A stretch of DNA of 64,000 nt from Candidatus Binatia bacterium (GTDB lineage: Bacteria; Desulfobacterota; Binatia; UBA9968; JAJDTQ01): positions 1,625,042 through 1,689,041 of the forward strand of contig OX638375.1 in the NCBI GenBank assembly GCA_951813575.1, read 5' to 3'. The notes under the pieces are model-generated. The model made no database searches and was not told where the DNA came from. It saw nothing but the letters and a program-made list of their open reading frames with translations. The translations under genes were made by a program, and so were the position numbers. Shown here one piece after another: positions 1 to 44,147 of this stretch (position 1 is the stretch's first letter; each line of letters begins with the position of its first letter).

Positions 1-477
1 AACGACATCGTGCGGGTCACCGGAAGACTGCACCGAACACCCGCGCTCGAGTTCGTTCAAAAAGGCAAGGGAGTTACCAACATCACCGGCGAGAAACTGC
101 ACGAAGCCCAGGTGCTGGAAGCCGTCGCCGGGATGCTGGAGGACCGGGGCATGCGTTCGGACTTCTTCATCATGCTCGCCGACCCGGAGGCCGGCCGGTA
201 TACGCTCTTCCTGGAGGCGACTTCGCCGAGCCGCGAAACCAATCTGGCTGACGACCTCGACAGCCGGCTGCGGACCTTGAACGTTGAATATGACTCCAAA
301 CGCGGGAGCGGCAGGCTGACTCCGCTCGAGATCCGTTGCCTTCGGAGCGGCACGGGCGACCGGTACCGGTCAAGCTGCGTGGCAAAGGGCCAGCGCGACA
401 CCCAGTTCAAGTATCTCCATCTTCAATACTCGCATGAGTGTACGTTCGACCTGGATCAGCATGTAGCGCCCGGATGA
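1..477 (+). CDS. GH3 family (acyl-acid amido synthetase-like) protein, C-terminal fragment; 5' end lies outside the window
   Basis: Frame of ORF 10..477. The C-terminal motifs (RVTGRLH-TPALEF, PLEIR-L-SGT, Q-KY) resemble the GH3 C-terminal domain. The stop overlaps the next gene's start in an ATGA. Confidence 0.55.
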   Translation, partial: NDIVRVTGRLHRTPALEFVQKGKGVTNITGEKLHEAQVLEAVAGMLEDRGMRSDFFIMLADPEAGRYTLFLEATSPSRETNLADDLDSRLRTLNVEYDSKRGSGRLTPLEIRCLRSGTGDRYRSSCVAKGQRDTQFKYLHLQYSHECTFDLDQHVAPG

Positions 478-1616
478 GACGGATGCGTATCGAGCGGTTG
501 GAACTGTTCTCTTTTCCGATTCCGTTCAAGGTGGTGTTTCGGCACGCATCCGCCCGTCGCGCCCGAGCCGAGAACCTGATCGTGGCCGCCCATTCCGACT
601 GCGGTCAAGTCGGTTACGGCGAAGGCTGTCCGCGCGCCTATGTCACCGGAGAGACCGTCGAGAGCGGAGCCGCATTCATCCATCAACACGCCGATGCAAT
701 CATCGACGCCGTTCACGACGAGGGAGGTCTCCGGGAATGGATCGGCGCGCACCTAACTGCGATCGACCAGAACCCCGCGGCGTTCTGCGCGGTCGAGATC
801 GCGCTCCTGGATCTGATCGGCAAGATCAAGCGAAGCCCGATCGAGAGGCTCGTTGGCGTGCCGGCTCTGGACGGGGCGTTCGCGTACTCGGCCGTCCTGG
901 GTGACGCCCCGTATCTCGCTTACCGGTGGCAATTCGGTCGTTACTGGAGACAAGGGTTCCGAGACTTCAAGGTCAAGGCCTCGGGCGACCTTCGACGTGA
1001 CCGCCCCAAGATGCGCGTGTTCCGTAACAGGAGCGAACCGCCCCCGAGGGTCCGGCTCGACGCAAACAACCTATGGACCTCCGCCGGCGAATGCATCTCC
1101 CATGTCGAAGCTCTCCCTTACCCCGTCTTCGCCATCGAAGAACCGCTCCGGAAAGGGGATCTGGAGGGATTCGACCGGGTGGGTCAAGCGTGCCGCATTA
1201 AGGTCATCCTGGACGAAAGCGTCTCGCAGACCCGGCAATTGGATGCCCTCGGAGCCGGCGATCGTTGGATCGTCAACCTGCGCGTGTCGAAGATGGGAGG
1301 GATCATCCGATCCTTGGAACTTGCGGCGAACGCCGCCCGCTATGGCATCGGCGTCATCGTTGGCGCACAGGTGGGCGAGACGAGCATCCTCACCCGCGCC
1401 GCGTTGACAGTCATGAACGCCATCCGCTCCAACCTCGTGGCCTGCGAGGGCGCTTTCGGCACTCACCTGCTCCAACAGGACCTCACCACCGAGAGCATCA
1501 TGTTCCGCGCCGGCGGAACCCTTTCCGCGGACGACCTCGGCACAAACCGCGATCCGGGCCTCGGCTTGAAGATCCGCGAGCGTGCTTTGATCCCGGTTAG
1601 ATTCCGCCCCTTGTAG
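474..1616 (+). CDS. Enolase-superfamily enzyme of the mandelate racemase / muconate lactonizing enzyme class (dipeptide epimerase or o-succinylbenzoate synthase-like)
   Basis: ORF 438..1616 from Met13 (MRRMRIERLELFSFPIPFK). The metal-ligand motifs DANNLWT, ILDES and KVSKMGG are typical of this family. Confidence 0.8.
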   Translation: MRRMRIERLELFSFPIPFKVVFRHASARRARAENLIVAAHSDCGQVGYGEGCPRAYVTGETVESGAAFIHQHADAIIDAVHDEGGLREWIGAHLTAIDQNPAAFCAVEIALLDLIGKIKRSPIERLVGVPALDGAFAYSAVLGDAPYLAYRWQFGRYWRQGFRDFKVKASGDLRRDRPKMRVFRNRSEPPPRVRLDANNLWTSAGECISHVEALPYPVFAIEEPLRKGDLEGFDRVGQACRIKVILDESVSQTRQLDALGAGDRWIVNLRVSKMGGIIRSLELAANAARYGIGVIVGAQVGETSILTRAALTVMNAIRSNLVACEGAFGTHLLQQDLTTESIMFRAGGTLSADDLGTNRDPGLGLKIRERALIPVRFRPL

Positions 1617-1641
1617 TTGACCGGGTACCACCGGTCCATCC

Positions 1642-2517
1642 TCACATGGCCCAACGAAGGTACGCCGACAGGATGTCTTCGCCCCACATCACGCAAACCC
1701 AGCCGGCCGTAGCGAGGTAGGGACCGAACGGGAACGGCTCGCTCCTTCGACGACGGCCCAGCGCGACCATGACGGCCCCTGCAACTAGCCCAATCGCCGA
1801 TGAAAACAGCAACACCAGGATCAGCACCTGCCAACCCAGCCAAGCTCCCAGCGCCGCCATGAGTTTGAAGTCACCGTAACCCATGGCCTCCTTGCCGGTG
1901 AGCAGCCGAAAGACGTGGAACACGACCCACAAGGAGAGATAACCCCCGATCGCCCCGAGCACGGCCGATGAAGGCGGAGTGAAGACCTCCCCAAGGTTGA
2001 GGGCCAGGCCCGTCCACAGGAAAGGCACCGTGATGATGTCGGGGAGTTGTTGCGTTTCCGCGTCGATGGCGGCCAGAGTGATCAGTCCCCAGGTCATCAG
2101 CAACGCGCCGAGCATGGGGGCGCCGTAGCCAAACCGCCAGGCGACCATCGCCGACAGGCCGGCGCTCAACAACTCCACCACAGGATACCGGATCGGTATG
2201 CGCCACCCGCACCAGGCGCATCGTCCGCGGAACGCCACGTAGCTCACCACCGGGATGACCTGCCAGACCGTCAACGGGTGACAGCAATGGGGGCAGTGGG
2301 ATCGTGGGACGACCAGGCCGTAAGCCTGACTTTGATCGCTCCTGTCAGCCCGGGCATCTTCGTCTACCCCCGCCAACTCCCTCGGCGTCCCGTCGTGCAG
2401 CATTCGAGGCAGCCGATGGACGACCACGTTGAGGAAGCTCCCGACCATGAGGCCGAGGCCTGCCACCGTCGTGATGAACACGGCCGGATTAGCCTCCAGG
2501 ATCAGGGGGTCGGACAT
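1642..2517 (-). CDS. pilD: Prepilin peptidase / type 4 leader peptidase (A24 family, PilD/GspO)
   Basis: These are the last 291 codons of ORF 1642..3906. The protein has the N-terminal CPHC-x-CAWC zinc motif, eight transmembrane segments and the GYGDFKLMAALGAWLGW catalytic motif. The upstream 460 codons of the ORF are read-through. Confidence 0.85.
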   Translation of the reverse strand: MSDPLILEANPAVFITTVAGLGLMVGSFLNVVVHRLPRMLHDGTPRELAGVDEDARADRSDQSQAYGLVVPRSHCPHCCHPLTVWQVIPVVSYVAFRGRCAWCGWRIPIRYPVVELLSAGLSAMVAWRFGYGAPMLGALLMTWGLITLAAIDAETQQLPDIITVPFLWTGLALNLGEVFTPPSSAVLGAIGGYLSLWVVFHVFRLLTGKEAMGYGDFKLMAALGAWLGWQVLILVLLFSSAIGLVAGAVMVALGRRRRSEPFPFGPYLATAGWVCVMWGEDILSAYLRWAM

Positions 2518-2733
2518 AACGCGGGAGTTCAGGTTACGATCTTTCGCGCCATGGAGTGCGTTCCTCCAGATTTGCCCAAGGCGACTCGTATGGAACCTCG
2601 AACCGACCGCCAAATCGAGCGGCAAAGCGGTTGACGGATAGAGGTCAACGGAAATATAGTCCGGGCTTAGGAGCCAATCAAACCCGAAGGCGCTGCTGGC
2701 GCCAACCTCCCGCCAAGGCTCCCTCAAACTAGA

Positions 2734-3177
2734 GTGCGCGCCGAAATGGTTCGATTCTACTCGATCCCCTCGGAGAAACTCACCAAAGGCTTCACGCTGC
2801 TGGAATTGCTGGCAGTGCTGGTAATCCTTGGACTGGTAGGTGCCATCGTGGCGCCGCAAGTGTTCAAGTGGCTGGACAAGGCCAACTTCGATGCGACGCG
2901 GGTGCAGATCGAAGCGCTCAGCGGCAGCATTGACCTGTACCGTCTGGAGGTAGGCTCTTACCCGCCGACCTTGGAAGCACTTGTGCGCAAACCCAGCGGA
3001 GTGGAACGGTGGAACGGGCCGTATCTCAGGAAGGCCGTGATTCCCAAGGATCCATGGAAGCGCGAGTACCGGTACCGCGTTCCAGGCGAGCATGGCCCCT
3101 ATGATCTGTACCCGCTGGGTGCGGACGGCGTCGAGGGTGGCCAGGGGAACAACGCCGACATCAAGAGTTGGGAATAG
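2734..3177 (+). CDS. gspG: Type II secretion major pseudopilin GspG; the likely true start is the Met at 2746
   Basis: It has the class III signal KGFTLLELLAVLVILGL. The C-terminal DPWKREYRYRVPGEHGPYDLYPLGADGVEGGQGNNADIKSW matches the GspG signature. Confidence 0.85.
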   Translation: MRAEMVRFYSIPSEKLTKGFTLLELLAVLVILGLVGAIVAPQVFKWLDKANFDATRVQIEALSGSIDLYRLEVGSYPPTLEALVRKPSGVERWNGPYLRKAVIPKDPWKREYRYRVPGEHGPYDLYPLGADGVEGGQGNNADIKSWE

Positions 3178-3256
3178 GCCGGCAAGGTGAGGTGGTCCTG
3201 GAAAATCGGACAGGTTGCTAAGGTGTATTCCACCGACTGAAGGAGGAGGGATACGC

Positions 3257-3538
3257 ATGAGCACACGACGAAGGTTCAGCGGAGACTTCAAGGCGAAGGT
3301 GGCGCTGGAGGCGCTGCGTGGGGACAAGACGGTCCAGGAGATCGCGGCCCGGCACAAGGTCCATCCGAACCAGGTGAGCACCTGGAAGCAGCGAGCGGTG
3401 GAGGGGATGAAGGAGTTGTTCTCCAAGGGTGCGGAGCGGGCACGTGGGGACCACGAGGGGGAGGTTCGGGACCTGCACGCGAAGATCGGGGAGTTGACGG
3501 TGGAGCGGGATTTTTTGGCCAAAGGGCTCAAGTGGTGA
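3257..3538 (+). CDS. IS3-family transposase OrfA (HTH_Tnp_1)
   Basis: ORF 3215..3538 from MSTRRRFSGDFKAKV. A leucine-zipper-like C-terminus is present. Confidence 0.85.
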   Translation: MSTRRRFSGDFKAKVALEALRGDKTVQEIAARHKVHPNQVSTWKQRAVEGMKELFSKGAERARGDHEGEVRDLHAKIGELTVERDFLAKGLKW

Positions 3539-4458
3539 GCCGGGAGAAGCGCCGGGCGATGATCGAGCCCGGCCATCCCAAGCTCAGCTTGAGCCGTCAA
3601 TGCCATCTGCTTCGAGTGAGTCGATCCTCGGTGTACCACCGGCCCAAGGGCGAGAGCGCGGAGAATTTGGCGCTGATGCGCCGGATCGACAAGCTGTTCC
3701 TGGAGTACCCCTTCTACGGCAGCCGCCAGATGGTCCGCCATCTGTGGCGGGAGCGAGTCCGAGTGGGTCGTCACCGGGTGCGGCGTCTGATGCGCCTGAT
3801 GGGGCTCCAGGCCATCTACCAGGCGCCGCGGACCACCCGACCGCACCCCGAGCAGCGGGTTTACCCCTATATGCTCAAGGGCGTCGCCATCGAACGGCCC
3901 AATCACGTGTGGACCGCAGATATAACCTACATCCCGGTCCGGAAGGGCTTCCTGTACCTGGTGGCGGTCATGGACTGGGCCACCCGCCGGGTGCTCTCCT
4001 GGCGGCTGTCGAACACCCTCGATGCCCGCTTCTGTACAGACGCCCTCTCAGAGGCTCTGGAACGCTACGGCCCTCCCGAGATCTTCAACACCGACCAGGG
4101 CAGCCAGTTCACCAGCCTGGAGTTCACCTCCGTGCTCAAGGACGCCGGCATTGCCATCTCCATGGACGGAAGGGGCCGGTGCATGGACAACATCTTCATC
4201 GAGCGCCTGTGGCGCTCGCTGAAGTACGAGGCTGTCTACCTGCACGAGCTCTCGGACGGCTTCGCGGCCCTGCGGGTCATCGCCCGGTGGGTGGCCTTCT
4301 ACAACAACCAAAGGCCTCATTCCGCCCTCGCCGGCTCCACCCCACAGGAGGCCTACGAACGAGGACTCCAGAGGCAGGCCGGACCTCACACCCCGCCCGC
4401 CCCTCTGCCAGTTCCATCCGAACACGAAGACGTGATAAACGGGACCTTGGCGGCATGA
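3532..4458 (+). CDS. IS3-family transposase OrfB (DDE integrase core). It is probably expressed as an OrfAB fusion by a programmed -1 frameshift.
   Basis: The sequence has DDE/rve motifs (HVWTADITYI, NTDQGSQFTS, MDGRGRCMDNIFIERLW). It overlaps OrfA in the -1 frame. Confidence 0.85.
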   Translation: MVSREKRRAMIEPGHPKLSLSRQCHLLRVSRSSVYHRPKGESAENLALMRRIDKLFLEYPFYGSRQMVRHLWRERVRVGRHRVRRLMRLMGLQAIYQAPRTTRPHPEQRVYPYMLKGVAIERPNHVWTADITYIPVRKGFLYLVAVMDWATRRVLSWRLSNTLDARFCTDALSEALERYGPPEIFNTDQGSQFTSLEFTSVLKDAGIAISMDGRGRCMDNIFIERLWRSLKYEAVYLHELSDGFAALRVIARWVAFYNNQRPHSALAGSTPQEAYERGLQRQAGPHTPPAPLPVPSEHEDVINGTLAA

Positions 4459-4582
4459 TCGAACGTCTGGAATACACCTTAACTCAGCCGCCCACCTGTC
4501 CTACAAACCAGGACCACCTCAGCCCGCGACACGCCCAAGCCAAGGCGAAACTGGACTTGCCCGGGATTGGTGGACAGGTTGG

Positions 4583-4885
4583 TTAAGCTGCCCGTGCCAT
4601 CCGCTCGAAGCCTGCTGGTGTCTGGTAGCCGAGGGTCGAGTGGCGACGTTGCCGATTGTAGAAGACCTCGATGAACTCGAAGATCGCGGCCCTTGCCTCG
4701 GCTGGACTCTGGTAGTCGGCGTGGTGGATGAGCTCGGTCTTCAGCGTTGCAAAGAAGCTCTCCACGACGGCGTTGTCCCAGCAGTTGGCGCGTCGGCTCA
4801 TGGAGCATTCGATGCCGTGGGCATCGAGCAGGCGCCGGTAGTCGGCCGAAGCGTATTGGGCGGTTTCAAGGGGTCGTCGCAACAC
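4583..4885 (-). pseudogene. C-terminal ~100 codons of a transposase from a different IS3-family element. An IR-like end (TTGGTGGACAGGTTGGTTAA) follows at ~4545-4580.
   Basis: The fragment reads [18 protein letters not shown]...[19 protein letters not shown]. The same fragment recurs at 15490-15693 on the plus strand. Confidence 0.75.
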
Positions 4886-5303
4886 GTCCTCGCTGGTGTA
4901 AGAGTAGCAGTTCGTTCAAGGCTTCGGATGGAGTTCTCCACCCGAGAGTCTTCCGCGGTCGGCGGTTGAGTGTGGCCGCGACAGCAGCAATGTCGTTAGC
5001 GCTGTGCCGATTGAGGTCAGTACCTTTGGGGAAGTACTGGCGCAGCAGACCATTGGTGTTCTCGTTGGTGCCGCGCTGCCACGGACTGTGGGGGTCACAG
5101 AAGAATACTTGCAACCCTGTGTCGATACCCAAACTTCCTGATGGTATCCGGTGTGAGCCAGGCGGCGGCTTCGCCTGGACTTGGTGCGATCGCAGCGTGG
5201 GCTGTCCTGCTCGATGCTCCCGGACCTCCTGGAGCCCCTTCAGAACATCCGAAGCGATATTGCGGTGAGCCATTCTTGATACCCTCCACAAGAGGCCGCT
5301 CAA
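4866..5303 (-). pseudogene. IS30-family transposase, C-terminal fragment
   Basis: The fragment reads [31 protein letters not shown]...[17 protein letters not shown]. There is no N-terminal HTH domain. Confidence 0.7.
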
Positions 5304-5310
5304 CGATGCT

Positions 5311-5770
5311 CACGTGGCACCGCCTCGCCGGACGACATGGGAGGCCTTGTGGTCTTGGGCTTCTTGGCCTTTGGCGACTCATAGAAGAGCTTCAGACTCT
5401 CCATCTTGCGCCGAAATTCCTCGGTGATCTGGCGGGCGACGGCGGGGTCCTGCAGCGCCCGCGGGGTGATCAGAATCACCAGCTCGGTACGGCGGCTGGA
5501 GTCCGCGGTGGTCTTGAACAGGTGACCGAGCAGGGGGATGTCGGAGAAACCCGGGACGCCGGACTGGGACTAGTTCTTGTTCTCCCGGATCAGGCCGCCG
5601 AGGACGATGGTCTCTCCGCTTTGGACGGCGACGCTGCTGTTGATCTTGCGCTGCTGGATCGTGGGCGTCAGGCTCCCGGCAGAACCTGGTGCCACGTCGC
5701 TTACTTCCTGCTTGATCTCCATGACCACGAGTCCGCCGGCGCTTACACGGGGCCTGACCGTGAGCAGCAC
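5311..5770 (-). pseudogene. Secretin (GspD/PilQ family) C-terminal fragment, copy 1. It is interrupted by an in-frame stop after ...GGLIRENKN.
   Basis: ORF 5570..5770 plus the continuation in the same frame (SGVPGFSDIPLLG-LFKTT...ELVILITPR). It is paralogous to 6804..7217. Confidence 0.6.
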
Positions 5771-5926
5771 GCCGGTGTCGCGGAACTCGATATTGTCGAC
5801 AGTGCTTGAGTCCCATTGCCGGCGCCAGCAGCCCTGTCACGCCGCCATTAAAGGTTGCCTAGAATGCCGTTGTCGATTAACAATGGTCCAAAGAAAGAGT
5901 ACGGGTCAGTACAAGGAGGTACCGGT

Positions 5927-6157
5927 GTGACAAACTATCGGGACCGCATCACTATCGAGCCGGGAAAGCGCGGCGGCAAGCCCTGTGTCCGCTTCATGCG
6001 GATCACGGTCTATGACGTGCTGGATTGGCTAGCCTCGGGCATGAGTGAAGCAGAGATTCTGAAGGACCACCCGGAATTGACCCAAGAGGACATCCGGGCC
6101 TGCCTGGCCTTTGCCGCCAATCGGGAACACCAATTATCTATGATCGCACCCGCTTGA
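5927..6157 (+). CDS. DUF433 domain protein (antitoxin-like partner)
   Basis: GTG start with an AAGGAGG Shine-Dalgarno sequence. The protein reads ITIEPGKRGGKPCVRFMRITVYDVLDWLASGMSEAEIL. Its stop overlaps the next gene's start. Confidence 0.75.
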   Translation: MTNYRDRITIEPGKRGGKPCVRFMRITVYDVLDWLASGMSEAEILKDHPELTQEDIRACLAFAANREHQLSMIAPA

Positions 6158-6486
6158 AGCTGCTCCTAGATCAGAACCTGTCTTTCCGGCTGCTGGAGGA
6201 GCTGGAACCCATCTATCCGGGCTCGACGCAAGTCAAGCTCATTAACCTCGATCAGACGGACGATCTTGGCGTCTGGCGCTTCGCCAGGGACAACGATTTT
6301 ACCATCGTTACCAAGGACTCGGATTTCCACGAGTTCAGCCTGGTCTATGGCAGTCCGCCGAAGGTGATCTGGCTCAAATGCGGCAACAAGCCCAGATCGT
6401 ATGTGCTGGGTCTACTGCTCGACAATCAGGATGCGGTCACGGCCTTCTTCAAGGACGACCAAAGCAGCTGCTTGGAAATCTATTAA
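6154..6486 (+). CDS. DUF5615 (PIN-like, Mut7-C-type) protein, toxin-like partner of DUF433
   Basis: The N-terminus MKLLLDQNLSFRLLEEL and the acidic residues are typical of DUF5615. It is translationally coupled to the DUF433 gene. Confidence 0.7.
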   Translation: MKLLLDQNLSFRLLEELEPIYPGSTQVKLINLDQTDDLGVWRFARDNDFTIVTKDSDFHEFSLVYGSPPKVIWLKCGNKPRSYVLGLLLDNQDAVTAFFKDDQSSCLEIY

Positions 6487-6572
6487 CGCTTACCGGTCCC
6501 TGTGCCGGATCGGGCGGCGAGGCGGCACGGGCAACTTTCTGTTGCTTGCTGAAGATTAGGTCACTTCACGTG

Positions 6573-6690
6573 GGCATAGGAAAGCTCCACTTGGTGGCGG
6601 GACCCCACGGGTACTGAGGTGGTCCCACTTTGGTGGACAGTGTGGCGGTGGCGTTAAGTAAGGGGATGTGGTCCCGGAAAATCGTGTCGT
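6573..6690 (+). other. 14-codon Rhs remnant (GIGKLHLVAGPHGY) joined at ~6615 to an IS-terminal-IR-like sequence (TGAGGTGGTCCC...GGACAG...TTAAG)
   Basis: The peptide matches the Rhs copy at 15200-15250. The first 11 nt of the adjoining sequence equal the IS3 terminal IR. Confidence 0.45.
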
Positions 6691-6803
6691 CTTAACCTTC
6701 TTTCCGTCGTACTGAGGAGAGGAAGGAGGATGTCGAGCCCGAGGCTGCAGCCCAAGGCAAGACGTCTTGAGGTGGAGGGAAAGACGATCTACGTGCCGAC
6801 CGC

Positions 6804-7217
6804 TCAACGTCCCTTAGACGGCGCAGCCTCGGAGGGCGTTTTAAAGGGTTTCGTGGCCTTGGCCTTCCCGGCCTTCGACGACCCATAGAAGGGTTTCAGA
6901 CTTCCCATCTTGCGCCGGAATTCCTCTGTGATGTGACAGGCGACGGCAGGGTCTTGTACGGCGCGGGGCGTGATCAGGACTACCAGTTCGGTACGGCGGG
7001 TGGAATCCGCGGTGGTCTTGAACAGGCGACCGAGCAGGGGGACGTCGGAAAGAGCGGACACGCCGGACTGGGACCGGTTCTTGTTCTCCCGGATCAGGCC
7101 TCCGAGAACGATGGTGTCGCCGCTCTGTGCTGCGACGCTGCGGTTGATCCTTCGCTGCTGGATGGTCGGCGTCAGGCTTCCGGCCGAGCCCGGCGCCACG
7201 TCGCTCACCTCCTGCAT
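6804..7217 (-). pseudogene. Secretin (GspD/PilQ family) C-terminal fragment, copy 2. Upstream of ~7217 the reading frame changes.
   Basis: The fragment reads LTPTIQQRRINRSVAAQSGDTIVLGGLIRENKN...SDVPLLGRLFKTT...ELVVLITPRAV. There is no N-terminal secretin domain. Confidence 0.65.
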
Positions 7218-7359
7218 GATCTCCTCTCCATGACGACGAGCCCGCCGGCGCTGACCGGGGCCTGACCGTGAGGAGCACGCCGGTGTGTGCGTGCTCGTTG
7301 AGAATTAGTCACTTCACCGAGCTCTCTGCCCTGCCTGTCCGGCGCAGCGATCCGGGAGT

Positions 7360-8875
7360 TTGGCGGTCCACTGCGTGGCAGGCTCCCACGGGTATTTGCG
7401 CATGCACGGCTACGACCACGTGGGGAGGCCAAGGAGCGAGACCGCGACCATATCCGGGGAGACCTTCCGGACAAGCCGCAGCTACGATAGCGCCGGCCGC
7501 GTGGCCACGGTGAGCTACCCCAAGAAGGGGTTTGGGGTGGGTTACGAGTATACCGCGAGCGGGTATTCGAGTAATATCTACAGTGTGGAGTCCACGGGGA
7601 CGGTGTACTGGACGGCGGAGGAGGTGAACGCCGAGGGGCAGATCACCGAGGCGATGCTGGGGAACGGGGTGAGCACCACCCGGAGCTGCGACCCGGAGAC
7701 CGGACTGGTGGAGAGCATCCAATCAGGGAAGGACGGCAACACGGAGGTACAGGACCTGGGGTATGTGTTCGACAGTCTGGGGAACCTGAGCACCCGGGAG
7801 GATTCCATCCAGGGGGTGTACGAGAGTTTTGACTATGACCTCTTGAACCGTCTTACGGGCGGCGCGGTGTACGATGCACTGGACGACACCGAGCGGGAGG
7901 CCAAGACCTACAGTTACGACGCCGTCGGCAACATCGTGAACAAGTCGGACGTGGGGGCTGAGGACTACGAGTACGAGTCCGGGAACGAGGCGGGGTCGGG
8001 GGATGCGGGTCCTCATGCGGTGGTGAGTGCCGGGGGAAACACCTACGAGTACGACGACAACGGGAACATGACCTCCGGGGCGGGGAAGGCCATGACCTGG
8101 ACGAGCTTCAACAAACCCCAGGTCATAAGCGACTCCACTACCACCAGCGCATTCATCCACGGTCCCGAAAGAGCCCGGATACAGCAGACCCGGGTGCAGG
8201 GGGCGGCCACCACCACCATCAAGTACGTGGGCACGATGTTCGAGCAGGTGGAGAAGACGGGTGCGGCCACCCAGTACGTGCACTACGTGTTTGCGGGGGA
8301 GAGGCGGGTGGCGGTGTACACCACCGACGATGGAGCCACGCCCACGGAGACGACGCGGTACCTGCACCAGGACCACCTGGGGTCGGTGGACACCATCACG
8401 GACGAGACCGGGGCGGTGGTGGAGCGGCTGTCGTACGATGCGTGGGGCAAGCGGAGGACGGCCACGGGGGACGATGCCTGGACCGACTCGCTCATAGCCA
8501 TCACCCCGGGGAACACCCCCAGAGGGTTTACCGGCCACGAGCACCTGGACGACTTCGAGCTGGTGCACATGAACGGGAGGGTGTACGACCCGGTGCTGGG
8601 GAGGTTTATGAGTCCGGATCCATTCGTGCAGTACCCGGAGAGTACTCAGGGGTTTAACCGGTATACCTATACCTCCAACAACCCCCTGTCCTTTACCGAT
8701 CCCAGCGGGTACTTCCTTTCAGAGCCGGATTGGGACGCAGACTACGAAATCGACGACGACGAGGAGAACGGGGGGCCTACGGCTGCGACGGCTGCGGCTA
8801 TACTGGCAACGATGAGGATGAACTGTACGGTGACGATCCGTGGGACGACACGCCGGTACGGCCCGGGGACACTAG
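7360..8875 (+). pseudogene. Rhs/YD-repeat protein, C-terminal core fragment (copy 1). It is 5'-truncated and carries a 1-nt deletion near 8776. Its toxin domain is replaced from ~8876.
   Basis: It has YD repeats (YEYTASGY, SYDAVGNIVN, TYEYDDNGNM) and the core-end motif RVYDPVLGRFMSPDPF...NRYTYTSNNPLSFTDPSGY. ORF 8730..8939 continues the copy-2 toxin N-terminus in a shifted frame. Confidence 0.8.
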
Positions 8876-9031
8876 AGCCTTGGCCAGATCGCGTTCCGCG
8901 ACCAGGCCCAGCGAGATCAGGAACGGACCCAGCCGTTGACCGCTTTCAGCTTGAAGCCGCAGTGCACGGTCCAGCTCCGACCGTTCCAGGCAGCGCTTCT
9001 CAACCAGCAATTCGCCGACGGCGTCGCTCAT
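8873..9031 (-). pseudogene. First 53 codons of a type II secretion / type IV pilus ATPase (GspE/PilB N-terminal domain). It is truncated at its junction with the Rhs fragment.
   Basis: The fragment MSDAVGELLVEKRCLERSELDRALRLQAESGQRLGPFLISLGLVAERDLAKAL matches the T2SSE_N domain. The remainder of ORF 8798..9031 is antisense Rhs sequence. Confidence 0.6.
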
Positions 9032-9242
9032 GGTTCGAGAGTTCCCGTGACGACGAGATTATCACGTTACCCTACGGGTCAACAGCGGTTACGACCAACT
9101 CCGAATCCACCTGCCATCGCGATCGTTCCTAGTGCCGAGCCTCAACGGCCGATCACGGCCGCTGCCTAGGCAATCCGCACCGGCATTCCGTTTCCCGATA
9201 CCGGCGCGCTGCTCACCGTCAGTTCCGGCAGTTCGTTCCCTT

Positions 9243-9965
9243 TCAGTCTTCGATCCTCCAGCCTCCAATTAGCCGATCCTGTTGCGTCTTGATCTTCACA
9301 AAATTATCCGGACGACAAACTACACCTACTACCGTCGTCTCCACCAAAATTCCGTCATAAACGCTACGAATGTTACACAACGCTTTCCGATTTAGAGTGA
9401 CAGGCCCACTCTTCACCAGTCCGCCTTCTTCCATCTCCACATAGAAGTCTGCGTTAGAAATGCCCAACACAGTGGCTCGTCTCGGATCGAAACTAAAGTA
9501 GTAATGTCGCTTCTCACCAATGAATGACTCTTCATAGCGATAAAATCCCGTTTGTTTCCCAATTCTTACCGACCTATCTAAAATGTGTTCTGATGCCCCC
9601 ACAATTGTTCGTCGATCGTACAATTTATCATAAAACAACATCAATAGAACCGACACGCCGCCGTCAACCCCGAAATCGGCACCAGGTATCGACAAGAACG
9701 TTGAAGGGGCATCATCGAAACCTTTCAGGTCTTTAAACAAATAATGAAAAATGGAGCGTGTGTTTTTTGTATATTCGTGCGGTATAGAGTACGCATGCCG
9801 GTGTCCTTTGATAGTAAGTGCCGACGCCCGGCTCGGCAACGCGACTACACATAAACACATTATGATCGTGAACAGGAACACGATGATCGTCGATTGCGAT
9901 GAAGTATATTGTGTCATAATGCAACCGTTAGTTGGACACCGGGTCACACTGCGAACAGACCACAA
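9243..9965 (-). CDS. Hypothetical protein encoded on a low-GC island. A hydrophobic N-terminal segment suggests it is exported.
   Basis: It is a 240-codon ORF whose local GC content is clearly below its surroundings. No family was recognised. It abuts the IS copy B end. Confidence 0.5.
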   Translation of the reverse strand: MWSVRSVTRCPTNGCIMTQYTSSQSTIIVFLFTIIMCLCVVALPSRASALTIKGHRHAYSIPHEYTKNTRSIFHYLFKDLKGFDDAPSTFLSIPGADFGVDGGVSVLLMLFYDKLYDRRTIVGASEHILDRSVRIGKQTGFYRYEESFIGEKRHYYFSFDPRRATVLGISNADFYVEMEEGGLVKSGPVTLNRKALCNIRSVYDGILVETTVVGVVCRPDNFVKIKTQQDRLIGGWRIED

Positions 9966-10076
9966 AAGCCGGCAGATACTGACCTAAGTAAGCACTTGTC
10001 GGCAAACTCAGAGTGAGGTGGTCCTGGTTTGTAGGACAGGGAGGCGGCTGAGTTAAGGTGTATTCCAGACGTTCGA

Positions 10077-11003
10077 TCATGCCGCCAAGGTCCCGTTTAT
10101 CACGTCTTCGTGTTCCGATGGAACTGGCAGAGGGGCGGGCGGGGTGTGAGGTCCGGCCTGCCTCTGGAGTCCTCGTTCGTAGGCCTCCTGTGGGGTGGAG
10201 CCGGCGAGGGCGGAATGAGGCCTTTGGGTGTTGTAGAAGGCCACCCACCGGGCGATGACCCGCAGGGCCGCGAAGCCTTCCGAGAGCTCGTGCAGGTAGA
10301 CAGCCTCGTACTTCATCGAGCGCCACAGGCGCTCGATGAAGATGTTGTCCATGCACCGGCCCCTTCCGTCCATGGAGATGGCAATGCCGGCGTCCTTGAG
10401 CACGGAGGTGAACTCCAGGCTGGTGAACTGGCTGCCCTGGTCGGTGTTGAAGATCTCGGGAGGGCCGTAGCGTTCCAGAGCCTCTGAGAGGGCCTCTGTA
10501 CAGAAGCGGGCATCGAGGGTGTTCGACAGCCGCCAGGAGAGCACCCGGCGGGTGGCCCAGTCCATGACCGCCACCAGGTACAGGAAGCCCTTCCGGACCG
10601 GGATGTAGGTTATATCTGCGGTCCACACGTGATTGGGCCGTTCGATGGCGACGCCCTTGAGCATATAGGGGTAAACCCGCTGCTCGGGGTGCGGTCGGGT
10701 GGTCCGCGGCGCCTGGTAGATGGCCTGGAGCCCCATCAGGCGCATCAGACGCCGCACCCGGTGACGACCCACTCGGACTCGCTCCCGCCACAGATGGCGG
10801 ACCATCTGGCGGCTGCCGTAGAAGGGGTACTCCAGGAACAGCTTGTCGATCCGGCGCATCAACGCCAGATTCTCCGCGCTCTCGCCCTTGGGCCGGTGGT
10901 ACACAGAGGATCGACTCACTCGAAGCAGATGGCATTGACGGCTCAAGCTGAGCTTGGGATGGCCGGGCTCGATCATCGCCCGGCGCTTCTCCCGGCTCAC
11001 CAC
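10077..11003 (-). CDS. IS3-family transposase OrfB, copy B
   Basis: It is 308 aa and differs from the copy A OrfB by a few substitutions. Confidence 0.85.
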   Translation of the reverse strand: MVSREKRRAMIEPGHPKLSLSRQCHLLRVSRSSVYHRPKGESAENLALMRRIDKLFLEYPFYGSRQMVRHLWRERVRVGRHRVRRLMRLMGLQAIYQAPRTTRPHPEQRVYPYMLKGVAIERPNHVWTADITYIPVRKGFLYLVAVMDWATRRVLSWRLSNTLDARFCTEALSEALERYGPPEIFNTDQGSQFTSLEFTSVLKDAGIAISMDGRGRCMDNIFIERLWRSMKYEAVYLHELSEGFAALRVIARWVAFYNTQRPHSALAGSTPQEAYERGLQRQAGPHTPPAPLPVPSEHEDVINGTLAA

Positions 11004-11278
11004 TTGAGCCCTTTGGCCAAAAAATCCCGCTCCACCGTCAACTCCCCGATCTTCGCGTGCAGGTCCCGAACCTCCCCCTCGTGGTCCCCACGTGCCCGCT
11101 CCGCACCCTTGGAGAACAACTCCTTCATCCCCTCCACCGCTCGCTGCTTCCAGGTGCTCACCTGGTTCGGATGGACCTTGTGCCGGGCCGCGATCTCCTG
11201 GACCGTCTTGTCCCCACGCAGCGCCTCCAGCGCCACCTTCGCCTTGAAGTCTCCGCTGAACCTTCGTCGTGTGCTCAT
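10997..11278 (-). CDS. IS3-family transposase OrfA, copy B
   Basis: Identical in sequence to the copy A OrfA. Confidence 0.85.
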   Translation of the reverse strand: MSTRRRFSGDFKAKVALEALRGDKTVQEIAARHKVHPNQVSTWKQRAVEGMKELFSKGAERARGDHEGEVRDLHAKIGELTVERDFLAKGLKW

Positions 11279-11313
11279 GCGTATCCCTCCTCCTTCAGTC
11301 GGTGGAATACACC

Positions 11314-12270
11314 TTAGCAACCTGTCCGTTTTTCCGGGACCACCTCAAGGGTCCTGTTTAACACGTCCTGCTGTTCCGGTTGAGCCGGCAGAGAGGCAGG
11401 TGAGCTGCAGCGCTGTGCCGGCCTCTGCGTCAGCATTCCCTTTTCGTAGACCTCGGCCGGGGTGGAGCCCCCCAAGGCGGAGTGGGGGCGCGCCCGGTCA
11501 TAGAAGGCGAACCACCGAGAGATCAGCCGCTGGGCCTGGAAGCCGTCAGAGATCTCGTGCAGGTAGACGGCCTCATACTTGAGGGAGCGCCACAGGCGCT
11601 CGATGAAGATGTTGTCCATGCAGCGGCCCCTGCCGTCCATGGAGATGGCGACGCCGGCGTCGTTGAGCACGGAGGTGAACTCCAGGCTGGTGAACTGGCT
11701 GCCCTGGTCTGAGTTGAAGATGTCGGGAGGGCCGTAGCGTTCCAGAGCCTCGGTGAGGGCCTCGACACAGAAGCGGGCATCGAGGGTGTTCGACAGTCTC
11801 CAGGAGAGCACCCGGCGGGTGGCCCAGTCCATGACCGCCACCAGGTACAGAAAGCCCTTCTGAACGGGGATGTACGTCAGGTCCGCGCACCACACGTGAT
11901 TGGGCCTCTCGATGGCCAATCCCTTGAGCAGACAGGGGTAAACCCGGTGCTGGGGATGCCGTGTGGTGGTCCGCGGCGCCTGGTAGATGGCCTGTAGCCC
12001 CATCAAGCGCATCAGACGCCGCACCCGGTGACGCCCCACAAAGACGCCTTCCCGCCACAGATGGCGGGCCATCTGGCGGCTGCCGTAGAAGGGGTACTCC
12101 AGGAACAGCTTGTCGATCCGGCGCATCAACGCCAGATTCTCCGCGCTCTCGCCCTTGGGCCTGTGGTACACAGAGGATCGGCTCACTCGAAGCAGATGGC
12201 ATTGACGGCTCAAGCTGAGCTTGGGATGGCCGGGCTGGGTCATCGCCCGGCGCTTGTCCCGGCTTACCAC
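11314..12270 (-). CDS. IS3-family transposase OrfB of copy C. Its C-terminus is altered by the junction with copy B.
   Basis: This is the lower part of ORF 11314..12585, which has DDE motifs. The upstream extension of that ORF is -1-frame read-through of OrfA. Confidence 0.7.
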   Translation of the reverse strand: MVSRDKRRAMTQPGHPKLSLSRQCHLLRVSRSSVYHRPKGESAENLALMRRIDKLFLEYPFYGSRQMARHLWREGVFVGRHRVRRLMRLMGLQAIYQAPRTTTRHPQHRVYPCLLKGLAIERPNHVWCADLTYIPVQKGFLYLVAVMDWATRRVLSWRLSNTLDARFCVEALTEALERYGPPDIFNSDQGSQFTSLEFTSVLNDAGVAISMDGRGRCMDNIFIERLWRSLKYEAVYLHEISDGFQAQRLISRWFAFYDRARPHSALGGSTPAEVYEKGMLTQRPAQRCSSPASLPAQPEQQDVLNRTLEVVPEKRTGC

Positions 12271-12612
12271 TTGAGCCCTTTGGCCAAAAAATCCCGCTCC
12301 ACCGTCAGCTCCCCGATCTTCGCGTGCAGGTCCCGAATCTCCCCCTCGTGGTCCCCTCGTGCCCGCTCCACCCCCTTGGAGAACACCTCCTTCATCCCCT
12401 CCACCGCCCGCTGCTTCCACGTGCTCACCTGGTTCGGGTGGATCTTGTGCCGCGTGGCGATCTCCTGGATCGTCTTGTCCCCTCGCAGTGCCTCCAGCGC
12501 CACCTTCGCCTTGAAGTCTCCGCTGAACCGTCGTCGTGTGCTCATTGCGTATCCCTCCTCCAGTCGGTGGAATACACCTTAGCAACCTGTCCGATTTTCC
12601 AGGACCACCTCA
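11348..12612 (-). mobile_element. IS3-family insertion sequence, copy C. It is a diverged relative (~85-90% protein identity). Its 3' terminal ~70 bp and that IR are missing because it abuts copy B directly.
   Basis: OrfA is at 12264..12545. The OrfB reading frame runs through into the copy B terminal IR (ending ...LEVVPEKRTGC). The 5'-end terminal IR is at ~12612. Confidence 0.8.
12264..12545 (-). CDS. IS3-family transposase OrfA of copy C
   Basis: The 93-aa product reads MSTRRRFSGDFKAKVALEALRGDKTIQEIATRHKIHPNQ... Confidence 0.8.
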   Translation of the reverse strand: MSTRRRFSGDFKAKVALEALRGDKTIQEIATRHKIHPNQVSTWKQRAVEGMKEVFSKGVERARGDHEGEIRDLHAKIGELTVERDFLAKGLKW

Positions 12613-12650
12613 GCTGTAGGCACACCACACATCCCATGGACCACAAAAAT

Positions 12651-13061
12651 TCAAAATAGTCTAAAAAGACTAAAACGGATTTCTTGATTCTTTATCTCAG
12701 ACTGATAAAACCATATGTATCCCGCTAATATGTTTAGCAGACAAAAAGTTACGAGTCCTTTGATAGCCTCTCCTCGATAACCTAACTTCCATAAGTAACA
12801 CACATAACCAATTGCATAAGACGTCATAGATATAACACAGATAAAGATAAGGCCAACACAAATATGAGAGACGGCCATAAGAATTGGATAGTCTTGCTCT
12901 GACCAATCTTGCTCTAACCAGTCTTGGTCTAACCAACCTTGTATCATGGAAAAGACGATGGCTAAGAAAAACACGGCATAAAACGCAATCAAAAAAAATG
13001 TCGAGTGATAGCAGACTCTAATCAACCTCTTGAAAACCGGTGGCAAAATATACTTTGTCAT
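12651..13061 (-). CDS. Small low-GC membrane protein immediately downstream of the Rhs toxin domain; putative cognate immunity protein
   Basis: It has four predicted transmembrane helices and an internal DW-rich tandem repeat (GWLDQDWLEQDWSEQDY). GC content is well below the genome's. The position matches Rhs toxin-immunity gene order. Confidence 0.5.
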   Translation of the reverse strand: MTKYILPPVFKRLIRVCYHSTFFLIAFYAVFFLAIVFSMIQGWLDQDWLEQDWSEQDYPILMAVSHICVGLIFICVISMTSYAIGYVCYLWKLGYRGEAIKGLVTFCLLNILAGYIWFYQSEIKNQEIRFSLFRLF

Positions 13062-13157
13062 GTGTCACCTTCACTTCTCCGGTACTATTCTACGCACATA
13101 TGAGATGGTTCTGCTTTCTTGGACACGCGAGCGGCAGACTTCACCTTTCATCGGAAA

Positions 13158-15488: not shown

Positions 15489-15489
15489 G

Positions 15490-15693
15490 ACGTCCTGGGA
15501 CAACGCCGTCGTGGAGAGCTTCTTTGCTACGCTGAAGACCGAGCTCATCCACCACGCCGACTACCCTAGTCCAGCCGAGGCAAGGGCCGCGATTTTCGAG
15601 TTCATCGAGGTGTTCTACAATCGGCAACGTCGCCACTCGACCCTCTGCTACCAGACACCAGCAGGCTTTGAGCGGATGGCACGGGCAGCTTAA
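15490..15693 (+). pseudogene. Second copy of the IS3-type transposase C-terminal fragment (the same one as 4583..4885), followed by the same IR-like end
   Basis: The fragment reads [24 protein letters not shown]...[45 protein letters not shown] follows the stop. Confidence 0.7.
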
Positions 15694-15742
15694 CCAACCT
15701 GTCCACCAACCCCGGGTAAGGCCAGCCGCAGGAAATCGCAGT

Positions 15743-16542
15743 CTGAGCACACTGCGAAACCACATCGTGCATCTCACCCAGCGGTTTGGGCTCGACCGCG
15801 CCGTGGACATAACACCGGAACGCGTGAGCCAGTATCAGGTGTCCAGACTTGAGGAAGGGGCGGCCCGCGCGACCGTGAACCGCGAAGTCGCAACCCTCAA
15901 CCGCATGATGTCGCTGGCCGTGAACAGGAAGGTGCTTCTCCGTAAGTCGCACTTCGGACTGCTGGATGGGGAGCGGACGCGGGAAGGCTTTCTCTATCCT
16001 GCGGACTTCGCGGCCGTTCTTGGCCATCTGCCCTTGGCTTCAGAGGCCAGTGGAGTTCCTTTACCTGAGCGGGTGGCGTGTCGGCGAGATGCGCTCCCTG
16101 CGTTGGGCCGACGTCAACATGGACGAGCGGGTCGCCGTCCTGAAGATCGAAAACTCGAAGACGAAGCGCTCACGTCCGCTGACCCTCGAGGGTCGCCTCT
16201 GGGACATCGTCCGGGAGGCTCACGGGGCACGAAGACTCGATTGCCCGTTCGTCTTCCATTGGAACGGCCAGCCTATCGGTAACTTCCGCAAAAGGTGGAA
16301 CAGCGCCTGCCGGGCCGCGGGCATTGAGGGGGTGGTCGTTCACGATCTGTGCCGGAGCGCTACCCGTAATCTGCGGGAGGCGGGTGTTCAGGGTCGCGAT
16401 GGACTTCACCGGACATGTCACCAGGGCGATGTTCGACCGGTACAACATCACGGACGCAGAACAGATGAGGCAGGCCCAGATCCAGTTAGACGAGTATCTG
16501 AGGCAACAGATCGGCGAGCGGAAGGTCAGAGCCATCCGGTAG
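15743..16542 (+). pseudogene. Tyrosine recombinase (phage-type integrase). It is broken by two frameshifts (~16030 and ~16390) and is N-terminally truncated.
   Basis: The catalytic-domain motifs are spread over three frames, in ORFs 15668.., 15966.. and 16324..: LSGWRVGEMRSLRWADV, then HDLCRSATRNLREAGV, then RAMFDRYNI. Confidence 0.8.
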
Positions 16543-16622
16543 GCGACGCGGACAAAAGGCGGACAAAATATGGCCATTTCGGAGCAGAGAGAGACCTACG
16601 CGTTCGTAAGTTGTTGAAATTA

Positions 16623-16699
16623 TGGTGGTCGCAGCAGGACTCGAACCTGCGGCCTCTTGCATGTGAGGCAAGCGCTCTAGCCGACTGAGCTATGCGACC
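16623..16699 (-). tRNA. tRNA-Val (anticodon CAC), 77 nt including the encoded CCA
   Basis: It folds as a cloverleaf by hand: a GGUCGCA/UGCGACC acceptor stem, a GCUC/GAGC D stem, a CUUGC/GCAAG anticodon stem with the loop CUCACAU, and a GCAGG/CCUGC T stem with UUCGAGU. The position was anchored through ORF 16526..16750. Confidence 0.85.
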
Positions 16700-16771
16700 A
16701 CGCCAGGATAGACCTTGACGTTTACCACCTGGACGGGCGGGTTTCAACAACGCCGCGGCAAGCGGAACGGG

Positions 16772-17038: not shown

Positions 17039-17085
17039 GGACTCTCTCCTGTTGGCGCCCGGCGTTCCAGGCGGCATGCGGCACT

Positions 17086-17493: not shown

Positions 17494-17633
17494 CGTAATC
17501 CTCCTCCTTGTTCGGCGTCGTCTTGGGATACTGCAATCCGGCACATGCGGCAACAGTGGAGAGGAGTCGGACGCCCAGCGAAATCTGTCTGAAACGGTCG
17601 CTCGGATCCCTGTAGCCCCTCCGCGCTGGTTTT

Positions 17634-17909: not shown

Positions 17910-18115
17910 AATAAGATTTCCTGCTATCGATCATTTGTGATCGTACCCGAGTGAGTCAATCTCATCCCTGACCGTTTGGTTCAGGATTTCCACGCGCCAG
18001 ACCATCCCCCGAATATACCGATTTTGATATAAGGGGCAAGCGGCGTCGACCACAGATGATCGGAAAATCTCGTACCGCTCCCGCTTTCCCGATGGGTCTG
18101 TGGTACAACGATTTC

Positions 18116-44129: not shown

Positions 44130-44147
44130 GAAGGGAAGGAGGAAACC

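What the first reader, a model, noticed from the sequence alone, without database searches (positions are those of the whole stretch)
5311..7280. Two paralogous secretin C-terminal fragments flanking a DUF433/DUF5615 pair
Only the last ~130 residues of a GspD/PilQ-type secretin are present, and they occur twice (5311..5770 and 6804..7217). One copy has an in-frame stop and the other an upstream frameshift. No N-terminal secretin domains appear anywhere in the window. pilD and gspG at 1642..3177 are intact, and gspE is a stub. Together these indicate a type II secretion / type IV pilus locus dismantled by IS activity.
Basis: partly seen in the sequence, partly recalled or inferred. Interest (0 to 1): 0.5.

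Follow-up and report, generated by a model that had tools for sequence, protein, structure and literature searches.

The report
Two dead secretin gene ends
These are two broken tail-ends of type II secretion pore (GspD) genes left in a stretch of a sponge symbiont's genome that mobile DNA has churned, which is ordinary gene decay, not a new system.

Summary
Two 3' fragments of GspD-type secretin genes lie on the minus strand: copy 1 at 5300-5812, with an in-frame TAG at 5570-5572, and copy 2 at 6804-~7305, with -1 and +5 indels upstream of an intact 137-aa ORF. A DUF433/DUF5615 pair sits between them. No N-terminal secretin domain occurs anywhere in the window. Independent metagenome assemblies from the sponge Petrosia ficiformis show the same lesions, so this is not an assembly error.

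- **Origin of the copies:** they are not a recent duplicate. In the domain part dS is 0.60, dN 0.07 and omega about 0.1, on both branches. They therefore descend from two secretin genes that stayed functional for a long time.
- **A gutted operon:** copy 2 and a 52-codon gspE stub (8876-9031) lie on the same strand and flank an RHS fragment. Relatives carry gspE-F-G-H-I-J-K-L-M-N-D in that order.
- **Ongoing decay:** solo IS3 ends abut the fragments, and other strains carry further deletions and IS insertions at this locus.

The intact pilD/gspG pair is an old orphan pair, conserved in relatives, not a fresh leftover. Whether the pathway is lost cannot be settled from 64 kb. The finding is ordinary pseudogene decay and of low interest.

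The parts
5300..5812 (-). gspD 3' fragment, copy 1. It covers about the last 170 codons of a T2SS secretin. It has an in-frame TAG at 5570-5572, and possible degenerate homology extends up to about 5848.
   Evidence: Pfam PF00263, E 3.2e-37, profile 50-166/169. TIGR02517 positions 472-600/600. GspD profile positions 556-703. PDB 5wq7 GspD residues 457-584. The TAG is also present in L001, L002 and L080.
6804..7305 (-). gspD 3' fragment, copy 2. The 137-aa ORF 6804-7217 is intact. Upstream lie a +5 nt insertion (GGAGA, within 7221-7230) and a -1 nt deletion (7255/7256). Firm homology with copy 1 ends at 7286.
   Evidence: Pfam PF00263, E 3.3e-24. Alignment with copy 1. tblastn out-of-frame piece at 7240-7305. 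Identical in L041. In L001, L002 and L080 the stretch 7083-7304 is deleted.
5864..6157 (+). DUF433 gene, the putative antitoxin-like partner.
   Evidence: PF04255, E 9.8e-25. Gene call of 97 aa in L001.
6154..6486 (+). DUF5615 gene, the putative PIN-like toxin partner. It overlaps the DUF433 stop by 4 nt.
   Evidence: PF18480, E 8.9e-31, profile 1-109/110.
6557..6614 (+). Scrap of an RHS core. It starts TTAGGTCACTTCAC, like the RHS piece at 7306.
   Evidence: 6572-6614 is 95% identical to 15294-15252. Alignment A2. Pattern search.
6615..6810 (.). IS3-family remnants. 6615-6660 resembles the IS right end, inverted. 6665-~6810 resembles the IS left end plus the start of orfA, running up to the copy 2 stop codon.
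   Evidence: Exact 11-mer IS terminus TGAGGTGGTCC at 6615. Local alignments to IS copy 3188-4521.
7306..8875 (+). RHS/YD-repeat fragment, truncated at both ends. It lies between the gspE stub and gspD copy 2. Firm homology starts at 7367.
   Evidence: PF05593 RHS_repeat E 1e-12 and PF03527. 94% identical to 15280-13771.
8876..9031 (-). 5' stub, about 52 codons, of a GspE/MshE-type secretion ATPase gene.
   Evidence: tblastn and phmmer against GspE of L010 and L040, residues 11-64, E 1e-7 to 1e-9. NF053729 MshEN-type domain, 51 bits against a cut-off of 38.
2746..3177 (+). gspG, the major pseudopilin, intact.
   Evidence: TIGR01710, 146.6 bits against a cut-off of 88.85. PF08334 2-108/108. Identical protein P0244 in 5 other contigs.
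1642..2517 (-). pilD/gspO prepilin peptidase, intact and divergent from gspG.
   Evidence: PF06750 plus PF01478, both nearly full length. The same pair occurs in L071-L079.
3188..4521 (+). IS3-family insertion sequence, starting 11 nt after the gspG stop. Further copies lie at 10014-11347 (99%, inverted) and 11350-12612 (88%).
   Evidence: Self-BLAST. Termini. HTH_Tnp_1.
4551..5130 (-). Remnants of two transposase genes: an IS3-type orfB C-terminus and an IS30-like C-terminus. They lie downstream of copy 1.
   Evidence: rve_3 and rve_2 hits. 4551-4781 matches 15725-15495. Absent in L081.

Best explanation
The two pieces are non-functional 3' remnants of two different GspD (type II secretion secretin) genes. 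Each gene was functional for a long time before it was cut down.

Copy 2 is what is left of an operon of the form gspE-F-G-H-I-J-K-L-M-N-D on the minus strand. The first ~52 codons of gspE and the last ~160 codons of gspD survive, and an RHS fragment lies where about 10 kb of operon used to be.

Copy 1 is the tail of a second, 84%-identical gspD. This was either a paralogue or an allele brought in from a sister lineage. It has lost everything upstream, lies next to a DUF433/DUF5615 cassette, and has since acquired a nonsense codon.

The region belongs to a sponge-symbiont genome. It is a patchwork of IS3 copies, solo IS ends, RHS orphans, a toxin-antitoxin pair and a broken integrase beside a tRNA-Val gene. 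Decay is still going on in the population.

- **Shown:** the identity of the pieces, the lesions, the selection signature, the synteny with relatives, the IS ends and the strain variants.
- **Inferred:** the order of events and the absence of function.
For: **Secretin identity and extent:**

**Lesions are real:** they are verified in independent assemblies.

**Selection signature.**
- Nei-Gojobori, copy 1 against copy 2, domain part: dS 0.60, dN 0.073, omega 0.12.
- Differences by codon position are 19, 18 and 46.
- Branch estimates with three outgroups give copy 1 dN 0.014-0.020 and dS about 0.30, and copy 2 dN 0.047-0.053 and dS about 0.31.

**Operon context.**
- Relatives at 50-64% identity carry full-length 640-780-aa GspD at the end of a gspE..gspD operon.
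- The gspE stub lies on the same strand, upstream of copy 2, and abuts the end of the RHS fragment.
- No other gsp gene is in the window.

**Mobile-element context.**
- IS termini abut the fragments.
- Strain variants include a 222-bp deletion that removes the start of the copy 2 ORF, a 581-bp deletion, and another transposase at 6815.
- tRNA-Val and a frameshifted integrase lie nearby.

**Source organism.** The source is linked to Petrosia ficiformis metagenomes.
Against: - **Close break points.** The two fragments lose secretin homology within about 35-70 nt of each other. tblastn start residues differ by 2. An RHS 5' end with the same unusual start lies near both. Two fully independent truncations would coincide this closely only about 5% of the time.
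- **Copy 2 ORF.** It is intact and is preceded by a Shine-Dalgarno-like GGAGAGGAG created by the 5-nt insertion. Expression therefore cannot be excluded.
- **No expression data.** No promoter-like site was found, but that scan is crude.
- **Rest of the genome.** It was not available, so a donor paralogue for gene conversion cannot be ruled in or out.
Confidence: 0.8

Rival explanations
1. One truncated gspD fragment, together with its junction to the RHS piece, was duplicated. Later one copy was overwritten by homologous recombination (gene conversion) with a diverged but functional gspD allele, either from elsewhere in the genome or from a sister strain. This would explain both the shared boundaries and the functional pattern of differences.
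For: - The break points nearly coincide.
- TTAG(G)TCACTTCAC plus an RHS bit occurs at both 6557 and 7306.
- 30 of 31 nt are identical at the extreme 5' end of the shared part.
- Other duplicates around the window, tRNA-Val/EVE/AP-endonuclease, sit at the same 84-86% identity. Sister strains at 93-99% identity coexist in the sponge.
Against: - Divergence is even along the whole fragment, with no clear mosaic.
- No candidate donor closer than 80% was found.
- The flanks beyond the stop codons are unrelated.
- The similarity of the junction scraps is short and only marginally significant.
Confidence: 0.15
2. A recent tandem duplication of a dead secretin fragment, with the DUF433/DUF5615 cassette inserted between the two copies.
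For: The fragments are direct repeats about 1.5 kb apart, with the toxin-antitoxin pair between them.
Against: dS is 0.60 with omega 0.12, and two thirds of the domain differences are synonymous (35 of 52). Dead duplicates should give omega near 1. The flanks are not in register.
Confidence: 0.03
3. The 137-aa ORF of copy 2, and formerly copy 1, is a stand-alone expressed mini-protein made of the last barrel strands and S-domain of a secretin, kept by selection.
For: The ORF is intact with a newly created SD-like sequence and ATG. omega is low on both branches.
Against: - Strains L001, L002 and L080 delete 7083-7304, which includes the start codon. L081 has another transposase from 6815.
- Copy 1 carries a TAG.
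- The C-terminal 26 codons evolve at omega 0.87.
- No promoter-like site was found.
- In solved GspD structures this segment is only part of the barrel.
Confidence: 0.03
4. Assembly or sequencing error hides an intact secretin gene.
For: None beyond the general possibility in a repeat-rich region.
Against: Independent short-read assemblies (LXNJ, Logan, JGI PetF, ENA LUOR22-1) reproduce the TAG, the indels and the flanks. No N-terminal domain exists in 64 kb.
Confidence: 0.01

Closest known systems
GspD, the outer-membrane secretin of the type II secretion system (TIGR02517; Pfam PF21305 N0 + PF03958 Secretin_N + PF00263 Secretin; solved examples E. coli K-12 GspD 5wq7 and V. cholerae 5wq8)
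   Same: - The sequence of the last 130-170 residues matches.
- It is the best match among all secretin subfamilies.
- The position downstream of a gspE start on the same strand fits the gspE..gspD operon seen in relatives.
   Different: - Only about a quarter of the protein is present.
- N0, N1-N3 and the first third of the secretin domain are missing.
- There is a nonsense codon in one copy and frameshifts in the other.
- The score is far below the family cut-off (149.8 against 351).
IS-driven pseudogenisation and genome erosion in host-associated bacteria (for example PMC6020299 on anglerfish symbionts and PMC3684830 on transposase-rich Olavius symbionts; titles seen, papers not read)
   Same: - Multiple IS copies and solo IS ends.
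- Truncated genes.
- Strain-level deletions next to IS copies.
   Different: The two junctions that gut the operon are with an RHS fragment and not with an IS end. The genome is about 4.2 Mb, so it is not strongly reduced.
RHS orphan modules (displaced rhs core-tip fragments that accumulate near rhs loci; from general knowledge)
   Same: 5'-truncated RHS core pieces occur in several copies (7306-8875, 13771-15548, and the scrap at 6557-6614). The core ends with the DPxGY-type motif.
   Different: Here one fragment sits inside the remains of a secretion operon. No link between RHS and the secretin pieces beyond adjacency was shown.
DUF433/DUF5615 two-gene cassette (putative type II toxin-antitoxin pair)
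   Same: Both Pfam domains are full length, and the two genes overlap by 4 nt.
   Different: Nothing unusual was seen. Its position between the secretin pieces appears incidental.

Membership tests
GspD (T2SS secretin) | C-terminal secretin domain (PF00263), with GspD as the best-matching subfamily | tested here: met
   PF00263 at E 3e-37 and 3e-24. TIGR02517 at E 1e-43 against PilQ at 1.7e-28. PDB GspD at 2.5e-22 against PilQ at 2e-15. Only profile positions 50-169 are covered.
GspD (T2SS secretin) | N0 and N1-N3 periplasmic domains (PF21305, PF03958) | tested here: not met
   A full-length GspD profile hits only positions 556-703 of 710 in the six-frame translation at E<=1. tblastn with 12 or more full-length GspD proteins gives only C-terminal matches.
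GspD (T2SS secretin) | Uninterrupted reading frame scoring above the family cut-off | tested here: not met
   TAG at 5570-5572, and -1 and +5 indels in copy 2. Scores are 149.8 and 95.6 bits against a cut-off of 351.35.
GspD (T2SS secretin) | Located in a gsp operon | tested here: inconclusive
   A gspE 5' stub lies upstream on the same strand, and relatives have gspE..gspD operons. gspF and gspH-N are absent from the window. gspG lies 3.6 kb away on the other strand.
Pseudogene / gene remnant | Truncation plus a disabling mutation, reproducible in independent data | tested here: met
   Further deletions of the same pieces occur in other strains.
Pseudogene / gene remnant | Relaxed selection (omega near 1) since inactivation | tested here: not met
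   omega is 0.06 and 0.16 on the two branches. This is read as recent inactivation of two long-functional genes. Only the last 26 codons show omega 0.87.
Naturally short secretin-only protein family | Complete genes of about 250 aa with a secretin domain only, in intact contexts | tested here: not met
   The all-short hit list is a search artefact. Relatives in genomes are 640-780 aa. P0016 is a frameshift piece of a full gspD.
DUF433/DUF5615 toxin-antitoxin pair | Both domains present, with adjacent overlapping genes | tested here: met
   The overlap is 6154-6157.
DUF433/DUF5615 toxin-antitoxin pair | Toxicity and neutralisation | not testable with these tools
   This needs an experiment.
IS3 family insertion sequence | orfA (HTH_Tnp_1) plus orfB (rve) and terminal inverted repeats | tested here: met

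The most novel reading that the evidence does not exclude
The near-identical truncation points and the strong purifying-selection signature would mean that a about 160-residue C-terminal secretin module has been maintained as a unit. It could act as an expressed mini-protein, given the new SD and ATG in copy 2. Alternatively it could serve as a silent cassette that recombines with a full-length gspD elsewhere in the genome, in the way orphan RHS tips or silent pilin cassettes do.
Probability: 0.04. Interest if true: 0.55.

Novelty: already known. Interest (0 to 1): 0.12.

Why it matters
It matters little in itself. It is a well-documented local example of how a secretion operon is taken apart in a host-associated bacterium rich in mobile DNA.

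Its modest value lies in three points:
- **Timing:** the substitution pattern dates the inactivation as recent relative to the split of the two secretin genes.
- **Live decay:** strain variants show the decay continuing in the sponge population.
- **Open question:** the conserved orphan pilD/gspG pair raises the question of which machinery it still serves.

If the complete genome lacks gspD, gspE and gspF, this lineage would have lost type II secretion while keeping the pseudopilin and its peptidase under selection.

Tried and rejected
1. **Short-secretin family.** The first protein search with the 168-aa fragment returned only proteins under 290 aa, which suggested a natural family of short secretins.
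   - Relatives in genomes are full length.
   - One short hit is a frameshift piece of a full gspD.
   - Others start at an internal Met.
   - The list is therefore an artefact of candidate selection, and the idea was rejected.
2. **Simple tandem duplication.** This was rejected on dS, omega and out-of-register flanks.
3. **Island boundary.** I looked for a direct repeat of the tRNA-Val 3' end in 1-16590 and found none.
4. **Junction scraps.** I tested whether 6487-6803 and 7218-7460 align significantly. Only the RHS bit aligned, with score 31 against a shuffle maximum of 32. The idea of a third secretin scrap at 6520-6556 was dropped.
5. **Second T2SS in the source genome.** I used the contig length 4,210,610 as a fingerprint for the source genome.
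   - No full-length GspD from that contig appeared among the 120 best relatives of the nearest full GspD.
   - No second GspG appeared, although the window's own GspG did, which serves as a positive control.
   - This is suggestive, not conclusive.
6. **Source genome in collections.** It was not found among the genome contigs representatives.
7. **RNA and promoter scans.** Rfam found only the tRNA. The promoter scan found nothing.
Full report
**What is there.**

On the minus strand of 5300-5812 and 6804-~7305 lie two stretches that translate into the C-terminal part of a secretin.
- Pfam PF00263 matches copy 1, read through its stop, at E 3.2e-37 over profile positions 50-166 of 169. It matches the 137-aa ORF of copy 2 at E 3.3e-24 over positions 80-168.
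- Among NCBIfam secretin models the best is the GspD equivalog TIGR02517, at positions 472-600 and 503-600 of 600. PilQ, MshL, HofQ and SctC score lower.
- The best solved relatives are T2SS GspD chains. The top one is 5wq7, residues 457-584, at E 2.5e-22. PilQ scores about 1e-15.
- Copy 1 has an in-frame TAG at 5570-5572, and its stop codon is 5300-5302.
- Copy 2 has an open 137-aa frame from the ATG at 7215-7217. Upstream, relative to copy 1, it carries a 5-nt GGAGA insertion and a 1-nt deletion at 7255/7256.
- The DNA of the two copies aligns over 5296-5778 and 6800-7286 at about 84% identity.
- Between them lie a DUF433 gene (5864-6157) and a DUF5615 gene (6154-6486), both on the plus strand.

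**No N-terminal part, and not an assembly error.**
- A profile of 20 full-length GspD proteins (710 positions) hits the six-frame translation of the whole window only at positions 556-703, which are the two fragments.
- tblastn with full-length GspD proteins from a dozen relatives gives the same result.
- Independent assemblies reproduce the lesions. L001 (GenBank LXNJ01022611), L002 (Logan, SRR3473501) and L080 (JGI PetF_10029715) are 99.9% identical to 4703-7082 and carry the TAG. L041 (ENA LUOR22-1) is identical over 6412-7496 and carries the indels.
- LXNJ is the metagenome of the Mediterranean sponge Petrosia ficiformis (PMC5099237). The window therefore comes from a sponge-associated bacterium. 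The exact proteins are recorded on a 4.21-Mb contig.

**A false lead.**
- The first protein search returned only short proteins of 115-290 aa carrying a secretin domain. That looked like a natural family of short secretins.
- It is not one. In genome records the relatives at 50-57% identity sit in ORFs of 640-760 aa.
- The closest long metagenome contig, L047 at 64% identity, has a GspD of about 780 aa at the end of a complete gspE-F-G-H-I-J-K-L-M-N-D operon.
- One short hit is a frameshift piece of a full gspD. Others begin at an internal methionine.
- A search with a full-length query returns full-length proteins.

**The copies are not recent duplicates.**
- Nei-Gojobori estimates over the gap-free codon alignment give dS 0.60, dN 0.073 and omega 0.12 for the secretin-domain part. 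Differences fall 19, 18 and 46 times at codon positions 1, 2 and 3.
- Only the last 26 codons evolve freely, at omega 0.87.
- With three outgroups (L045, L042, L047) the branch to copy 1 has dN 0.014-0.020 and dS about 0.30. The branch to copy 2 has dN 0.047-0.053 and dS about 0.31.
- Both lineages therefore spent most of their separate history as parts of working genes. Truncation, stop codon and frameshifts are late events.
- The term 'paralogous' in the finding holds. A recent duplication of a dead piece does not.

**A gutted operon.**
- At 8876-9031 on the minus strand lie the first ~52 codons of a GspE/MshE-type ATPase. tblastn and phmmer align them to GspE residues 11-64 at E 1e-7 to 1e-9. 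NF053729 scores 51 bits against a cut-off of 38.
- The stub ends exactly where a 1.5-kb RHS fragment ends. That fragment (7367-8875, plus strand) is 94% identical to 15280-13771. Its other end abuts copy 2.
- Read along the minus strand the order is gspE-5', RHS piece (antisense), gspD-3'.
- Relatives have gspE first and gspD last. The simplest reading is that about 10 kb of operon interior was lost and an RHS fragment now lies in its place.
- No trace of gspF or gspH-N exists in the window.

**Mobile DNA at the edges.**
- IS3-family copies lie at 3188-4521, 10014-11347 (99%, inverted) and 11350-12612 (88%). Their termini read TGAGGTGGTCC....
- The same 11-mer terminus occurs alone at 6615, directly after a 43-58-nt RHS scrap (6557-6614).
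- 6615-6660 resembles the IS right end. 6665-~6810 resembles the IS left end plus the start of orfA, and it runs up to the stop codon of copy 2.
- Downstream of copy 1 lie remnants of an IS30-like and an IS3-like transposase gene.
- A frameshifted phage-type integrase (15668-16688) lies beside tRNA-Val (16623-16699).

**Decay continues in the population.**
- L001, L002 and L080 lack 7083-7304. This removes the start of the 137-aa ORF.
- L081 lacks 4553-5133, has the neighbouring IS in the other orientation, and from 6815 carries a different transposase in place of copy 2.
- L045, from a sample that also holds a 93%-identical strain, has a longer gspD remnant of about 265 C-terminal codons, about 240 nt from an IS3-type end.

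**pilD and gspG.**
- Both are intact.
- The same divergent pilD/gspG pair occurs in more distant relatives. In L077-L079 GspG is 74% identical. L076 carries an orphan gspG alone. In none of these is another gsp gene called within 10 kb.
- Against L077, gspG has dS 0.91 and dN 0.175 (omega 0.19). pilD has dS 1.02 and dN 0.35 (omega 0.34).
- The pair is therefore an old, selected unit, not fresh debris.
- Using contig length 4,210,610 as a fingerprint for the source genome, the GspG search recovered the window's own protein as a positive control. It found no second GspG of at least 62% identity from that genome.
- The GspD search found no full-length GspD from that genome among the best 120 hits. 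This is weak evidence that no closely related second T2SS exists there. It does not settle whether the pathway is lost.

**What remains unexplained.**
- The fragments lose secretin homology close to each other: copy 1 at 5812, possibly degenerate up to 5848, and copy 2 at 7286-7305. tblastn start residues differ by two.
- An RHS 5' end beginning TTAG(G)TCACTTCAC lies at 7306 and again at 6557.
- Chance is possible, at roughly 5% for two breaks within 35-70 nt in a 2.2-kb gene.
- The alternative is that a truncated piece with its junction was duplicated and one copy was later overwritten by recombination with a diverged working allele. No mosaic pattern and no donor was found, so I rate this at about 0.15.
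- A functional mini-protein is unlikely, for three reasons. Strains delete its start, copy 1 has a stop codon, and the segment is only part of the secretin barrel in solved structures.

**Verdict.**

These are ordinary gene remnants of type II secretion secretins in a region reshaped by IS elements, RHS fragments and other mobile DNA in a sponge symbiont. IS-linked gene decay in host-associated bacteria is well described (for example PMC6020299 and PMC3684830, titles seen). Novelty is 'already known' and interest is low.

Noticed in passing
window 1642-3177; L076, L077, L078, L079: The divergent pilD/gspG pair is conserved as an orphan pair, with no other gsp gene within 10 kb, in relatives at 74-78% GspG identity. 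It is under purifying selection (gspG omega 0.19, pilD omega 0.34 against L077). Which machinery it serves is open.
   Followed up: partly
window 7083-7304 (absent in L001, L002, L080): A 222-bp deletion polymorphism removes the 5' part of secretin copy 2, including the start of its 137-aa ORF. Its right edge falls at the secretin/RHS junction.
   Followed up: yes
L081 against window 4522-6815: Another strain lacks 4553-5133 and has the IS3 copy next to 4522 in the opposite orientation. From 6815 it carries an IS1182/IS5-like transposase gene in place of copy 2.
   Followed up: partly
window 7215-7229: A 5-nt GGAGA duplication plus an AAG-to-ATG change create GGAGAGGAGATC-ATG, a Shine-Dalgarno-like site and start codon, in front of the intact copy 2 ORF.
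   Followed up: partly
L071 2084-3980 against window 16614-19000: About 4 kb to the left of the window start lies a second tRNA-Val(cac) with an EVE-domain gene and an AP-endonuclease gene. It is 84-86% identical to the tRNA-Val/EVE region at 16.6-19 kb. This is the same divergence level as the two secretin pieces, which suggests an old segmental duplication or a merger of homologous regions from sister lineages.
   Followed up: partly
window 15668-16699: A phage-type integrase is split over two frames (Int_N at 15668-16282, catalytic domain at 15966-16688) next to tRNA-Val (16623-16699, minus strand). No repeat of the tRNA end was found in 1-16590.
   Followed up: partly
window 7367-8875 and 13771-15280; 6572-6614: Two RHS core fragments in inverted orientation are 94% identical, and a 43-nt scrap also matches. 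L077 shows large Tc-toxin/YD-shell genes beside the pilD/gspG pair in a relative.
   Followed up: partly
window 9243-9965 (minus strand): A 240-aa ORF lies in a low-GC patch (56% against about 63% nearby). It has no Pfam or NCBIfam match and sits between the gspE stub and an IS3 copy.
   Followed up: no
window 42606-44131 and 44136-45661: A head-to-tail 1.5-kb repeat at 83% identity lies inside a long minus-strand ORF region.
   Followed up: no
L045 529-1565: A related sample holds a longer gspD remnant of about 265 C-terminal codons, 77% identical in DNA to copy 1. It begins about 240 nt from an IS3-type terminal sequence. This is a third, independently truncated secretin gene.
   Followed up: partly
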